Source: Pocillopora damicornis
Lineage: Eukaryota
Direction of reading: 5' to 3'
DNA: 64,000 bases
Assembly (NCBI RefSeq): GCF_003704095.1
Contig: NW_020845923.1
Location: 124,001-188,000 of the forward strand
Below, in pieces: positions 28,501 through 37,500 of this stretch. A model generated the notes under the pieces. It searched no databases. It was not told the DNA's origin and saw only the letters and a list, made by a program, of their open reading frames with translations. Both the position numbers and the translations under genes were made by a program. Position 1 is the stretch's first letter, and every line of letters starts with the position of its first letter.

Positions 28501-31500
28501 CTTCCCACATCGTTCTCAAAAAATTGTTATTACGAAATTGTGTGACTATCTTCCATTAATTGTCCTTATTAATTTTTAGTTTTGTCCTTTATCTTCATTC
28601 TGTTAATTTTACTTCATCGTGTTTTTCTTCGAAACAAAACTATTCCTCGTTGCTTTGTTTTTTTTTTGTTTTTGGTTGTTGTACCTTAAACATCTTTTGT
28701 GCTTCACAAGACCTCTCTTTCTGCTGTCTTGATGTCATGNNNNNNNNNNNNNNNNNNNNNNNNNNNNNNNNNNNNNNNNNNNNNNNNNNNNNNNNNNNNN
28801 NNNNNNNNNNNNNNNNNNNNNNNNNNNNNNNNNNNNNNNNNNNNNNNNNNNNNNNNNNNNNNNNNNNNNNNNNNNNNNNNNNNNNNNNNNNNNNNNNNNN
28901 NNNNNNNNNNNNNNNNNNNNNNNNNNNNNNNNNNNNNNNNNNNNNNNNNNNNNNNNNNNNNNNNNNNNNNNNNNNNNNNNNNNNNNNNNNNNNNNNNNNN
29001 NNNNNNNNNNNNNNNNNNNNNNNNNNNNNNNNNNNNNNNNNNNNNNNNNNNNNNNNNNNNNNNNNNNNNNNNNNNNNNNNNNNNNNNNNNNNNNNNNNNN
29101 NNNNNNNNNNNNNNNNNNNNNNNNNNNNNNNNNNNNNNNNNNNNNNNNNNNNNNNNNNNNNNNNNNNNNNNNNNNNNNNNNNNNNNNNNNNNNNNNNNNN
29201 NNNNNNNNNNNNNNNNNNNNNNNNNNNNNNNNNNNNNNNNNNNNNNNNNNNNNNNNNNNNNNNNNNNNNNNNNNNNNNNNNNNNNNNNNNNNNNNNNNNN
29301 NNNNNNNNNNNNNNNNNNNNNNNNNNNNNNNNNNNNNNNNNNNNNNNNNNNNNNNNNNNNNNNNNNNNNNNNNNNNNNNNNNNNNNNNNNNNNTCTTTCA
29401 CGTACTGTACATGGTCCAAATTGTATTGCCTCAGTTTTTTCGGGTCAAAAAGTCCTAACAAGCGCGAGTCCAGGCTCTTCAGGGACTCCGCTCGTAACCT
29501 GTCCCTCATGGTGATGGAACCTTTGTGGGATAGCGCGTGCCCATTATCCACAGCGTCCCTCATTTTCTGACGTCTTCGAAGAAGAACGACCACGATGACA
29601 CATAACAAAATAATACAAAGGCCAACTATGACAATTGGAAGGATAATTCCCAGTTTACTACCAGGTTGTGGGGTTGGCTTCTCAGTGTTTGCACCCATCG
29701 TGGTCTCTGTGTAATCTGAGAAGAAGAAAAACACAGATTAGGTCGACTTATTGGATCGGTTGAAACGAAAATTGTCTGCAATGAAATAGTTGTACTGTAG
29801 CAGACTAACATCTGTATCTGCAAATTAACATCTAATGTACGAGAAGGCGCTTTTCTACCGTACCTATCGTTTCTCCTTTGGGAAGGGGGGGGGTTAACTT
29901 CTATGGTTGAATATTAGTTTACAAGTACTTGCTCTGTGCCAATCAAAATGACTTACTGTAAATATTTTAAAATAACTGCCAGACTCTGCTCTCTATGCAT
30001 GGTTAAAATATCACTATATATTACTCCGGAAAAATCACACAAAGCTGAAACATCAATGATGGTATTTCAAAAAAGCGAAAAAACTGCAATTTCTAAAGAT
30101 TCAATGCGAGCAGGCCCTCACTTTTAGCGCGACCGCGGGAAAGTATAAGGCCGTGAGGCGAGAGGTCTGCCAGGGGTCTGGCACTGATAATAAGGCTTTT
30201 TATTAGTGCCAGGTCTTTAACTTTCTCAAATCTTTCCACGGGCGGCAGCCCTATTAACAGGCTATAGATTCAGCTTAACAAATTGACCACAATTTTCCTT
30301 TGTCTACAACCCTATTGATCGTAGAAAAGAATTCAACAATGTTCAAAACTAGAGTGAAACCACGAAGGGCAATCGAGTGGTTTCACTGCACAATTTTGAG
30401 TATTGTTGACGTCATTTCTATGACTAACAAGGTTATAGACAATAGAAAATTGTAATCGATTTGTTTTTTACAATAACACTGAAATTTTTTTGCCAGCTGA
30501 ATACGCCAAAGTTTTTCGAAAAATTACGCGTGTGTGACATGATCGATCCTTGCTTTGTTGTTTGTTTTAACTTGAGTTATGTAATAACTTGTACAGTGAA
30601 ATACCAGTAAGAAATGGATGGCAATATACTCTGTAGCCCTGAATAGGTTTTTTATTGCCCACGTAGTTTAAAAATTTTGCGCCGTTTGCAACGGTATCGG
30701 CAAGTATTTCTACGAGGTTGTCCATCTATCAACTTTGCGAACAGAACTCTGAAGATTTTCCCCCGCTTTTTCTTCCATCTCGACAAGTTCTTCTTCAGAC
30801 TTTTTTCTTAGTATATCGATCTTAAAATCCGGAATATTCTTACCGTCAATATCTCAGAAGATTTCAATTACTTTAACGAGATAAGTGTTTTCTCCGACTT
30901 GGCGAGGATTGCCGAGCGTTGCGTTACACGCCACGTCATTTTTATCGCGTATAACCTTATTTACAATAATTCTCGACCGATGAGCTAGCGAGAATTTCTA
31001 CAGTTATGGAAAATATGAAATAACCACTTGCCATGGCTGAACAATATTCTAAATCTTAAGAACCACTTTGCTTCTGCTTGACTTTCACGAAATATTTTCT
31101 TTTGCTCTCTAAAAACACCGCTATCAATGGATTACTATATTATATAAATTTTTAGTTACGCATTATTGTGGGCGCTGGAAAAGCCTTAGGGAATTCATGA
31201 GACTGCGAGATTCTGCCAAATTGCTATATATTTCCTTGTGCAACACACGGAGAAGTTGATGTCACACCAAAAGTTTCTTATTACTTAATAAATGTTCACT
31301 TACTGAAAAAGCCTGTCTTGATACAGATCTTTCCTGGTTTTTCTTCAAAATGTTCTTCCTTATGGTGCCCGGAACAGTTCGGTAGACTTGTGTGTATAAA
31401 ATCAATCTTTTCCGCTGCCACATGCAACGTCACGGCGCCAATCACTTGATTCAGGGGGGTTCTACATTCCTTGAAAATGGCCGCACAGTCCTCCCTACAG

Positions 31501-34500: not shown

Positions 34501-37500
34501 TGCCATGATTGAACAATATTCTAAATCTTAAGAACCACTTTACTTCTGCTTGACTTTCACGAAATATTTTATTTTGCTCTCTAAAAACACTGTTATCAAT
34601 CATGGATTATTACGGCAATAAACCGACATAAATTTTTAGTTACGCAGTATAGTGGGCGCTGAAAAAGCCTTAGGGAATTTATGAGGCTGCGAGATTCTGC
34701 CAAATTGCCATATATTTCCTTGTGCAACACACGGAGAAGTTGATGTCACAACAAAAGTTTCTTATTACTTAATAAATGTTCACTTACTGAAAAAGCCTGT
34801 CTTGATACAGATCTTTCCTGGTTTGTCTTCAAAATGTCCTTCCTTATGGTGCCCGGAACAGTTCGGTAGACTTGTATGTATAAAATCAATCTTTTCCGCT
34901 GCCACATGCAACGTCACGGCACCAATCACTTGATTCAGGGGGGCGCTACATTCCTTGAAAATGGCCGCACAGTCCTCCCTACAGTACTCTATGTCTGTGC
35001 CATCCGAGTAACATGGAGGCACAGTATAATGACAAAGCATATTTATTAAGATGTATCTGCACTTTTCGTCGTCCTTCACAAGCGTGTTGATTATTTGTAG
35101 ACCCCTGAAAAGAAATTCTTCGGTGGCTGGCAAGCCGAATTTGTTGTCAAAGAAACGGTCACTGTTGCGGTAAGTTGGGAGGGTCGAGTTGAATGACACT
35201 TGGCAAACTTTTCCTCGATAGGGCATGCAGGATCCTCCTCTAAACAAAGAAAAAATAGAAATAGGTTAGTACTGAACTTCCTATATCTTGATCAAACCGC
35301 TATTTTTACTTCTTATCAACCGAGTACTGTAAGTAACGGACCGTATTTTGTTTTCGTCTGCTCGAATTTTTGGCCCAGGTTCGAAGCGCGCGGGCCTTAA
35401 ATCCGAACTGAAAAGAATGGGTCCAAATGGAGGGATAGAATTTCAATTTACACTCAATTTGGAATTCAGCGGGCCGTTCTGTGAAATATGGTCAGCCAAT
35501 CATTGGGGAAGTACAAAGAGAGATACAAAAACAAGTGTTAATGACCTCGTAGTCAGTTCTTTGCAATATTGCTTTGATCGGCCCGCCAAGGGACAAATAA
35601 TTGACATACACCACTCACAGCTGTTGGAAACCAACCAATCCCAGCGGAGTATAATACTTTATGAAGTAATGCGTGGAAAGCCAAGGCCATCGGAGTAAGA
35701 AGACCATGAATATGCGCTCAAAAGGATTTCATCGCAGCCACTACATCTTGAGAACAACAAAATTCCTTCATGAACATGGAATTTCGTTGTCTAAACAGAG
35801 GCCATCAACAGGCCAATGGCAACGTATCCAACCAGCACGCGCAAGACTATTTAGCATATTTTTGGTATACAAGTCGCAGGATTTCCCCTCTAAAATACCA
35901 CTCGGTGAGTCAAGGAAAGAAATTTTGGCTCAAAAAAGTTGGAAAAATTGGCTAACTCGAAATTCTAAATATGTTATAACACTCACTTCCAGGGAAAAAT
36001 AAAANNNNNNNNNNNNNNNNNNNNNNNNNNNNNNNNNNNNNNNNNNNNNNNNNNNNNNNNNNNNNNNNNNNNNNNNNNNNNNNNNNNNNNNNNNNNNNNN
36101 NNNNCCCTTTGTGTTCAAATATCTTCAACGTATTGTGCATTATCTTTCTTCTAAGGACCGTTAAGACGAAATGTCGCCGGGTTTAAATCGCGTTTGGCCC
36201 CTTTTCTGTGGAACCTGTATGCGGTCATCCCAGTGGAAGTGGTCAGCCCACCATGCCCCGTGGGTGATCACTTAATCCTTTACACCTTAACATCAGTATA
36301 TATTTTCTCCGTATTGTTCTCTATGCATTTCCTAGGGTGCTGACAAAGAGAATTTGTCTAACAGTCAAGAGCTTCTTTAGTTGGTGATCATGCCCTTTAT
36401 TCTCATGACCTGGATATTTGTTTTAGGGGTGATAGTAACAGAAGAAAATATTTACAAATCACTCGTGGGGTTTAAAGCGTTAATACAGGTTGGACTGTAT
36501 GTAAAGAGACTTCGAGAACGGCGTGGTGGCATGAACAGTGTGTTCATTATATGCATATTTAACGGGAAAGCGAAATACTGACCTTGCCCCATTCACAGTC
36601 GCTACAGTGATCATTTCTGAAAATATCATTATTAACAAATTCAGTTTCGCTGGAAAGTGGAAAAGAAGTGAGACTAATAAATTAATGTTTGAGACCTCGC
36701 CATAGCTGGAGATATTGTCGATCATGTTTCACATTTTATTTCCGTGTGTAGTCTTACTTTGTGTTCGATTCTTTGATAAGCTTGGGGTCGTTGACAGCAA
36801 ACAAGGTAAGCTGTAACGTTACGCATTAGTTTACTAGAAAAATATTTCAAGTAAATTAACCTTTCGATGGCCAAGGGCTACCTGAAGTAATTACAGTGAT
36901 TTGATAGCTGCTAAATCGATACGCGTTTCAATTTAAAGAATGTCAGTTTTTCAGTCACATGGGAATCCTCCGTTTAAACTGAATATTTATACATTACGTG
37001 CCTATTACTGACAGATCTAATCAAGTCTCTCTAAAAAGGTCGCCTCAAAGGCAAAGGGGAATAGGCGACTGTGGAGGAGTTAATTGTCGGCTTATGTGGG
37101 CGGCTCAGCGAATTTTGTTACAACGTTCGTCAGTCAGTGACTTGCATGTTCTGGCCATTGTAGAGAGGTTATGAATGAAGTGAGGTATCACGTTAACGGA
37201 AAAAAAATGAACTGTGATTTGACTCACTTTTCGTATAATTCTTAGAAGTATGTTGTAGAAAAATAACCAAAAATATTTTTTTCATAGTAAATTAAAAATA
37301 TCATCATTAGCTTGCGAAACGACCAGATGCAGTTGGCAAAAAGTACTCTTTTTTCCTGCCGGTTCCTTTTTCCAGTAAACGTAATTTTAACTTCTCAGTT
37401 TTTGACATTAAGAACGCATTTTAGCGAATTTTTGCCGAAGTGAAAAGGTGTCTTTCTGATTACAAGGCAATCTTGAACCAGACAAAGCGAAGAAGCCCCA

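What the first reader, a model, noticed from the sequence alone, without database searches (positions are those of the whole stretch)
31304..35239. Two near-identical CRD exons differ mostly by amino-acid-changing substitutions
Seen (by-eye count): the copies at 31304-31725 and 34788-35239 differ at 13 of about 138 residues (P/S, D/R, F/T, L/V, Q/E, T/Q, G/D, I/M, E/K, S/R, A/T, G/E, D/E). Several involve 2-3 nt changes within one codon, against about 5 synonymous changes, and all Cys are kept. The duplicated TM exon differs at 3 of about 107 residues and the kinase exon at 2 of about 63. Inference: diversifying or balancing selection on the ligand-binding surface, as in immune, allorecognition or symbiont-recognition receptors rather than a typical developmental Wnt receptor.
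Basis: partly seen in the sequence, partly recalled or inferred. Interest (0 to 1): 0.72.

Follow-up and report, generated by a model that had tools for sequence, protein, structure and literature searches.

The report
Shuffled copies of coral receptor exon
The two exons are real sequence versions of one coral MuSK-like receptor-kinase gene that the assembly laid side by side at a gap, likely from a recently duplicated, copy-number-variable locus; they differ at 13 amino acids but at no more than the neutral rate, so selection for new ligand specificity remains an untested lead.

Summary
The count is right: 13 of 139 codons differ (23 nt) and all cysteines are kept. The inference is not shown. 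Pairwise dN/dS is 0.75, population pN/pS 0.52, and exon divergence equals intron divergence (5%). The CRD-over-kinase excess matches the between-genus pattern (p=0.40) and the neighbouring paralog. The gene is a Pocillopora-type coral signal peptide-trefoil-Frizzled CRD-TM-tyrosine kinase (MuSK-like fold). RNA splices trefoil to CRD to TM, and homologs carry one CRD. The doubled blocks are staggered overlaps at 100-N gaps, so the layout is an assembly artefact. The versions themselves are real. An inverted mini-contig holds a head-to-tail duplication junction, three of five other samples carry three or four versions, and two carry one. Copy A's changes travel as separate blocks, and a frameshift version is common. 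Best reading: a young, copy-number-variable tandem locus under relaxed constraint, shuffled by recombination or conversion; A and B are paralogs (about 55-60%) or alleles. Lead left open: changes concentrate in the two helices that line the lipid site of related CRDs, in several coral lineages. I found no paper on the trefoil-Fz-kinase architecture.

The parts
34788..35239 (-). Frizzled-type CRD exon, version B (complete)
   Evidence: Pfam Fz E 7.8e-9; splice ends; RNA joins to trefoil and TM exons; model matches MuSK CRD 3HKL, TM-score 0.71
31304..31725 (-). CRD exon, version A; first 10 codons lost in the gap
   Evidence: Alignment; A-type contig runs on to the exon start in X12
32937..33293 (-). 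Stalk-TM-juxtamembrane-kinase start exon, version B
   Evidence: tblastn with P0001, 84%; RNA loose end from the CRD enters here
29394..29715 (-). Same exon, version A (3' end in the 654-N gap)
   Evidence: 3 of 107 aa, dN/dS 0.16
27586..27870 (-). Kinase exon with VAVK (single full copy; short stub at about 26285-26318)
26890..27081 (-). Kinase exon with HRD, DFG and YTTDYY activation loop, version b
25586..25777 (-). Same kinase exon, version a
   Evidence: 2 of 62 aa, dN/dS 0.29
39532..39609 (-). Signal-peptide exon of the focal gene (single copy)
   Evidence: 73% to P0001 residues 1-26, GT donor
36105..37774 (+). Inverted mini-contig W: neighbour gene's signal-peptide exon (36724-36807) joined at 36991-37003, through 11 filler bases, to focal intron 1; read as a head-to-tail duplication junction of a unit about 23356-38362
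   Evidence: 5% from 23356-23847, 8% from 37875-38362; the intron piece has one other match in G000
23540..23623 (-). Signal-peptide exon of the neighbouring paralog in its normal place
31726..31825 (.). 100-N gap; flanks 28231-31725 and 31826-35209 overlap in staggered fashion, 5.1% mismatch
26319..26418 (.). 100-N gap; flanks 25113-26318 and 26419-27619 overlap, 5.3% mismatch
34937..34944 (-). Homopolymer run where a one-base deletion gives a frameshifted version in other samples (not in A or B)
   Evidence: X12 contig, depth 195; 22 distinct database proteins on 39 contigs end or change frame here

Best explanation
The two exons are two real versions of the single CRD exon of a coral trefoil-Frizzled-TM-tyrosine-kinase gene, placed next to each other across an assembly gap, and they likely come from a young, copy-number-variable tandem duplication whose copies drift under relaxed constraint and likely swap blocks by unequal recombination or gene conversion. 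Shown: one CRD per transcript; staggered overlaps at gaps; several versions per sample in some runs and one in others; block mosaics; a common frameshift version; dN/dS below 1. Inferred: contig W is the duplication junction (about 15 kb unit), which would put a second copy of the gene body behind the neighbour's promoter and signal-peptide exon. Also inferred: A and B are paralogs (about 55-60%) rather than alleles (about 40%). Inferred from family knowledge: the protein works as a ligand-clustered surface receptor. The MuSK-type CRD likely binds a Wnt or other protein ligand, the trefoil likely binds mucus glycan or a partner (recalled from vertebrate TFFs), and the kinase is likely active (VAVK, HRD, DFG, YxxxYY). 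The YD(I/V/M)P repeats in homolog tails would recruit SH2 adaptors (recalled).
For: Staggered overlaps at 2 of 6 100-N gaps in the window and 2 of 49 elsewhere (5.8% and 8.6% mismatch), 0 of 48 at other gaps. Only one signal-peptide exon and one full first kinase exon; trefoil and 3' exons not found in G000. RNA contig X19 and 95 stranded raw reads in X21 join trefoil-CRD-TM. The four full-length homologs scanned have one trefoil and one Fz each. Junction W. Four haplotypes at 35097-35109 in X12 and X16, at least three in X21. Three exon versions share one longest-contig length of 398,409 with the neighbour paralog's CRD (P0125, P0040, P0062, P0117). One unbranched contig over the exon in X3, one in X19. 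A's N- and C-terminal blocks occur apart (P0057, P0063, P0071, P0042, P0067). dN/dS 0.75, pN/pS 0.52. Genome-wide heterozygosity in a Pocillopora is 1.14% and a third of genes are tandem duplicates, under-assembled by short reads (PMC10236652, passages).
Against: W is one short contig and was not checked against reads. X12, X16 and X21 may be pooled, chimeric or polyploid samples. Co-location on the 398-kb contig is inferred from equal lengths only. The strict Z-Y-X stagger fits simple alternating alleles equally well. The CRD's dN/dS (0.75; 1.31 in residues 7-60) is far above the long-term 0.13 against a distant coral (dS saturated) and above the TM exon's 0.16. Variation concentrates in helices a1/2 and a5 in several lineages (combined p 3e-4), which relaxed constraint explains only if those helices are tolerant surface.
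Confidence: 0.58

Rival explanations
1. Diversifying or balancing selection acts on a ligand-recognition surface (C-terminal a1/2 and a5); duplication and block exchange generate a repertoire, as in immune or allorecognition receptors.
For: 6 of 13 A/B changes lie in 27 pocket-helix residues (p=0.02). Variable sites are in excess there in 5 of 6 sequence groups, significantly in 2, 16 of 42 in one. Block mosaics recur in Stylophora-type and two other coral clusters. Weighted protein diversity is 0.026-0.031 against 0.011 for the neighbour's CRD and 0.015 for the TM exon. Residues 7-60 give dN/dS 1.31. Multi-base clusters 5 of 16 vs 7 of 96 in introns, p=0.014.
Against: No estimate is significantly above 1. 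The same helices are least conserved among distant homologs (0.56 vs 0.72), and conditioning gives p=0.06. Linked sites are not independent and groups may mix species and paralogs. One group shows no excess (5 vs 5.2 expected). A distant coral's two samples have identical CRD protein. One exact variant sits on 10 contigs, unlike alr2's 35 alleles in 36 animals (PMC3342096, passages). The cluster excess falls to p=0.19 after stepwise cases are removed.
Confidence: 0.24
2. A single-copy gene: A and B are simply two old or introgressed alleles that the assembler failed to collapse; W is a mis-join or a rare rearrangement.
For: Perfect alternating stagger; never more than two versions in G000; a known artefact class (PMC8081667, passages); single versions in X3 and X19; 20 of 25 listed variants inside the shared region are A-type letters in mixed combinations.
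Against: Clean junction in W with unique sequence; 3-4 versions in three runs; three versions sharing a 398-kb contig length; 5% divergence is about four times reported heterozygosity.
Confidence: 0.14
3. The layout is real: an intragenic CRD-TM tandem duplication giving a two-CRD receptor; or the differences are sequencing errors.
For: The copies are adjacent and both open. One Stylophora gene model (P0082) has two trefoil-CRD pairs, by fusion with the upstream gene.
Against: Both duplicate ends coincide with contig ends at an unsized gap; CRD-TM-CRD-TM-kinase has the wrong topology; RNA shows trefoil before and TM after the CRD; A-type letters recur in other runs.
Confidence: 0.03

Closest known systems
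Vertebrate MuSK (CRD structure 3HKL)
   Same: Best fold match (E 4e-5, TM 0.71); ten-Cys CRD, single TM, Trk/MuSK-type kinase with YxxxYY loop; database homologs are auto-named MuSK-like.
   Different: No Ig domains; a trefoil domain precedes the CRD; no NPxY Dok7 site seen in the juxtamembrane exon (motif recalled); tandem array of paralogs.
Drosophila Nrk/dRor2 (7ME4) and ROR1/2 (9FSE)
   Same: Best sequence match of the CRD profile (E 2.7e-5); long unbroken a1/2 and a break into a4/a5 in the model, as described for Nrk and MuSK (bioRxiv 2021.04.29.442059, passages).
   Different: No kringle; catalytic motifs intact, whereas human RORs are pseudokinases (same paper); a buried fatty acid was not tested.
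Hydractinia alr2, Botryllus fuhc, Dictyostelium tgrB1/C1
   Same: Polymorphic extracellular domain with chimeric alleles (PMC3342096, passages).
   Different: Those show omega>1 codons or near one allele per individual; here omega<1, shared common variants, common frameshift version, and a kinase domain.
False heterotype duplication and collapsed tandem gene arrays in coral short-read assemblies
   Same: Partial tandem exon duplication beside gaps (PMC8081667); lost tandem copies (PMC10236652); recurrent tandem duplication between coral haplotypes (PMC12314368, abstract).
   Different: Here a junction contig suggests a real duplication underlies the artefact.

Membership tests
MuSK family RTK | Frizzled-like CRD of MuSK/ROR type | tested here: met
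   Pfam Fz, fold match 3HKL
MuSK family RTK | N-terminal Ig domains | tested here: not met
   Pfam on four full-length homologs finds trefoil, Fz and kinase only; RNA puts the trefoil exon directly before the CRD
MuSK family RTK | Tyrosine kinase with intact catalytic motifs | tested here: met
   [27 protein letters not shown] in the window's exons; 3' kinase exons absent from the assembly; activity not assayed
MuSK family RTK | Orthology by kinase phylogeny | not tested
   No tree with bilaterian MuSK, ROR, Trk or DDR was built
ROR/Nrk family | Kringle domain after the CRD | tested here: not met
   CRD splices directly to the TM exon; no kringle hit
ROR/Nrk family | Wnt binding by the CRD | not testable with these tools
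   No binding data; no complex prediction was run
Polymorphic recognition locus under diversifying selection | dN/dS above 1 in the recognition domain | tested here: not met
   0.75 pair, 0.52 population, 0.71 at variable codons; 1.31 in residues 7-60 on 9.8 N vs 2.2 S changes, not distinguishable from 1. No site model run
Polymorphic recognition locus under diversifying selection | Many intermediate-frequency, recombinant variants | tested here: inconclusive
   32 variable residues and mosaics, but alleles, paralogs and species are not separated and only 40 of 259 members of the main cluster were read
Polymorphic recognition locus under diversifying selection | Variable residues cluster on one surface | tested here: inconclusive
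Polymorphic recognition locus under diversifying selection | Genotype predicts fusion, symbiont or disease outcome | not testable with these tools
   No phenotype data
Assembly false duplication | Duplicate ends coincide with contig ends at a gap | tested here: met
Assembly false duplication | Half read depth on each copy in the source individual | not testable with these tools
   Only contigs of other samples and one RNA read set were available

The most novel reading that the evidence does not exclude
Stony corals carry an undescribed array of trefoil-Frizzled receptor tyrosine kinases, and one member is a hypervariable recognition receptor: copy-number change, block exchange in the helices around the CRD lipid site, a promoter and signal-peptide swap with its neighbour, and a common null version are maintained by selection in several coral lineages, turning a Wnt-type receptor module into a sensor of microbes, symbionts or non-self tissue.
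Probability: 0.2. Interest if true: 0.68.

Novelty: new variant of a known kind. Interest (0 to 1): 0.3.

Why it matters
As posed, the finding is mostly ordinary: a badly assembled, duplicated receptor gene whose outer domain changes faster than its kinase. It warns that only strongly diverged versions survive as side-by-side copies, so such pairs are pre-selected for looking unusual. What remains of value: a trefoil-Fz-kinase receptor array for which three paper searches listed no description, and a repeated concentration of variation in two CRD helices across corals. If site-level selection were shown, it would give a concrete candidate for self/non-self or symbiont recognition in reef corals, where to my knowledge (recalled) no allorecognition gene is identified.

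Tried and rejected
Sequencing error: rejected. Two-CRD receptor: rejected. Cluster size as a measure of hypervariability: rejected; the CRD cluster (259) contains other exons' fragments (3 of 15 listed) and the TM-exon cluster is as large (239). A donor paralog for A's blocks: none close enough among the 6 matches in G000; the assembly is incomplete. Trefoil and 3' exons elsewhere in G000: not found; no proof of absence. JGI scan gave 3 distant loci only, with dS saturated, useless for site tests. Exact look-ups of control exons failed for 7 of 10 queries. One search showed only 40 of 279 variant rows, none inside the CRD exon. Row L004 was dropped from alignment A1. Earlier findings: nothing by sequence, place or words. 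No complex prediction and no kinase tree were run. The literature on Pocillopora balancing selection listed nothing on this gene (listing only).
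Full report
Observation. The TM exon versions differ at 3 of 107 and the kinase exon versions at 2 of 62. Nei-Gojobori values: CRD dN 0.054, dS 0.071, ratio 0.75; TM 0.16; kinase 0.29. Seventeen nonsynonymous of 23 is the neutral share (p=0.62). Intron divergence between the versions is 104 of 1956 (5.3%), the same as CRD pN. By amino acids the CRD exceeds TM+kinase (p=0.026); by N:S ratio p=0.07; against the kinase exon alone p=0.16.

The gene. The exon is a Frizzled-type CRD. 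Full-length homologs from Stylophora (82% in the CRD), Montipora, Desmophyllum and Orbicella were found; the four scanned have signal peptide, trefoil, one Fz, TM and tyrosine kinase. Named near-identical neighbours are Pocillopora proteins. The AlphaFold model (pLDDT 88) matches the MuSK CRD best (3HKL, TM 0.71); the sequence profile matches Drosophila Nrk first. RNA contig X19 and 95 stranded raw reads of X21 splice a trefoil-type exon to the CRD and the CRD to the TM exon. The trefoil exon and the 3' kinase exons were not found in G000. All 6 CRD matches in G000 lie on this scaffold: an array of about five genes.

The layout is an assembly product. Each doubled block is a staggered overlap: the end of one contig repeats the start of the next across a 100-N gap (25113-26318 with 26419-27619; 28231-31725 with 31826-35209). 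In 800 kb of control sequence the pattern occurs at 2 of 49 such gaps (5.8% and 8.6% mismatch) and 0 of 48 other gaps. This is the described false-duplication class (PMC8081667, passages). Surviving pairs are pre-selected for high divergence (inference).

A real duplication probably lies beneath. Mini-contig 36105-37774 is inverted. It carries the neighbouring paralog's signal-peptide exon and about 185 bases of its intron (5% from 23356-23847), then 11 filler bases, then unique sequence of the focal gene's first intron (8% from 37875-38362). In gene order that is a jump back, the mark of a head-to-tail duplication of about 15 kb. It was not checked against reads. Runs X12 and X16 show four haplotypes at 35097-35109 and X21 at least three; these may be pooled samples. 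Three exon versions and the neighbour's CRD share a longest-contig length of 398,409. X3 has one unbranched 953-base contig over the exon, X19 one contig, and X1 one contig identical to B over 34523-35083, where A differs at 26 places. So copy number or content varies. Reported Pocillopora heterozygosity is 1.14% and tandem copies are lost in short-read assemblies (PMC10236652, passages). I put A/B as paralogs at about 55-60% and alleles at about 40%.

Population variation. A's N-terminal block has depth 149 of 641 in X12, 27 of 119 in X16, 2 of 28 reads in X21 and none in X19; its C-terminal letters are absent from X12. Database proteins carry the blocks separately. Of 37 variant rows, 24 are nonsynonymous and 13 synonymous, each scored singly against B's codon: pN/pS 0.52, 0.71 at 90 cross-species variable codons. 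A one-base deletion at about 34938 truncates the protein in 22 listed proteins on 39 contigs, against 21 intact ones on 48 (listings are partial, 40 of 259 members of the main cluster read). It is seen in X12 and not in the other five runs.

Controls on the domain contrast. Against Stylophora the CRD differs at 27-33 of 139, TM at 19-20 of 107, kinase at 2-3 of 62. The A/B split is not different from that (p=0.40). In the neighbouring paralog, nine proteins differ from P0007 at 4-8 of 153 CRD residues (one partial, 2 of 85) and 1-4 of about 270 kinase residues. So CRD over kinase is family-wide. Multi-base clusters are enriched over introns (5 of 16 vs 7 of 96, p=0.014) but two dissolve into single steps with population intermediates (p=0.19); such mutations are known to mislead selection tests (bioRxiv 165969, listing and abstract start).

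Weighted protein diversity is 0.026-0.031 against 0.011 (neighbour CRD) and 0.015 (TM exon), with uneven sampling. Residues 7-60 give dN/dS 1.31 on 12 changes; the long-term value against a distant coral is 0.13 with saturated dS. In Nrk the fatty-acid contacts lie in the C-terminal part of a1/2 and in a5, the counterparts of Frizzled's Wnt-lipid channel (bioRxiv 2021.04.29.442059, passages). Six of 13 A/B changes lie in the matching 27 residues (p=0.02), and 5 of 6 sequence groups show an excess there, combined p 3e-4. But sites are linked, groups may mix species and paralogs, these helices are the least conserved among distant homologs, conditioning gives p=0.06, one group shows no excess, and two samples of a distant coral have identical CRDs. 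I chose the helix boundaries after seeing the variants.

Mechanism and verdict. Most likely a MuSK-like, trefoil-bearing, catalytically intact receptor kinase whose gene duplicated recently in Pocillopora; redundant copies drift, exchange blocks and sometimes break (0.58). Diversifying selection on the pocket helices is a live rival (0.24); plain alleles at a single-copy gene 0.14; real two-CRD gene or errors 0.03. It is not a member of MuSK or ROR by architecture (no Ig, no kringle), though it works like them by inference. Three searches (listings only) showed no paper on this architecture; subscription papers and bioRxiv supplements were not visible and may hold one. Other papers seen: PMC3342096 passages, PMC12314368 abstract. 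Interest 0.3.

Noticed in passing
window 48377-55840 (-): Another trefoil-CRD-TM-kinase paralog whose kinase reads HSD and DLG in place of HRD and DFG, with a degenerate glycine loop: pseudokinase-like, as in human RORs (comparison recalled).
   Followed up: no
window 41282-42237 (-): Trefoil and CRD exons with no TM or kinase exon found before the focal gene; possibly a secreted decoy. One Stylophora model (P0082) fuses its ortholog to the focal gene, another (P0083) keeps it separate.
   Followed up: partly
window 16644-23623 (-): Complete neighbouring paralog, single version in the assembly apart from its first exon; two database variants of its CRD sit on 210 and 92 contigs.
   Followed up: partly
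G000:C2558:208023-216090 (L024): A fifth array member outside the window (CRD, TM and kinase exons).
   Followed up: no
proteins P0014, P0254-P0267: In another coral group a six-residue block in helix a5 segregates on several N-terminal backgrounds; the strongest mosaic signal seen.
   Followed up: partly
window 11596-14579 (+): ORFs with coiled-coil-like and acidic low-complexity translation of an unrelated gene.
   Followed up: no
window 9602, 14002, 17555, 24904, 36271, 49209, 59630: A dispersed repeat of about 200 bases, with at least 40 matches across G000.
   Followed up: no
window 32698-32855: A 156-base deletion just 3' of the TM exon in all four runs.
   Followed up: no
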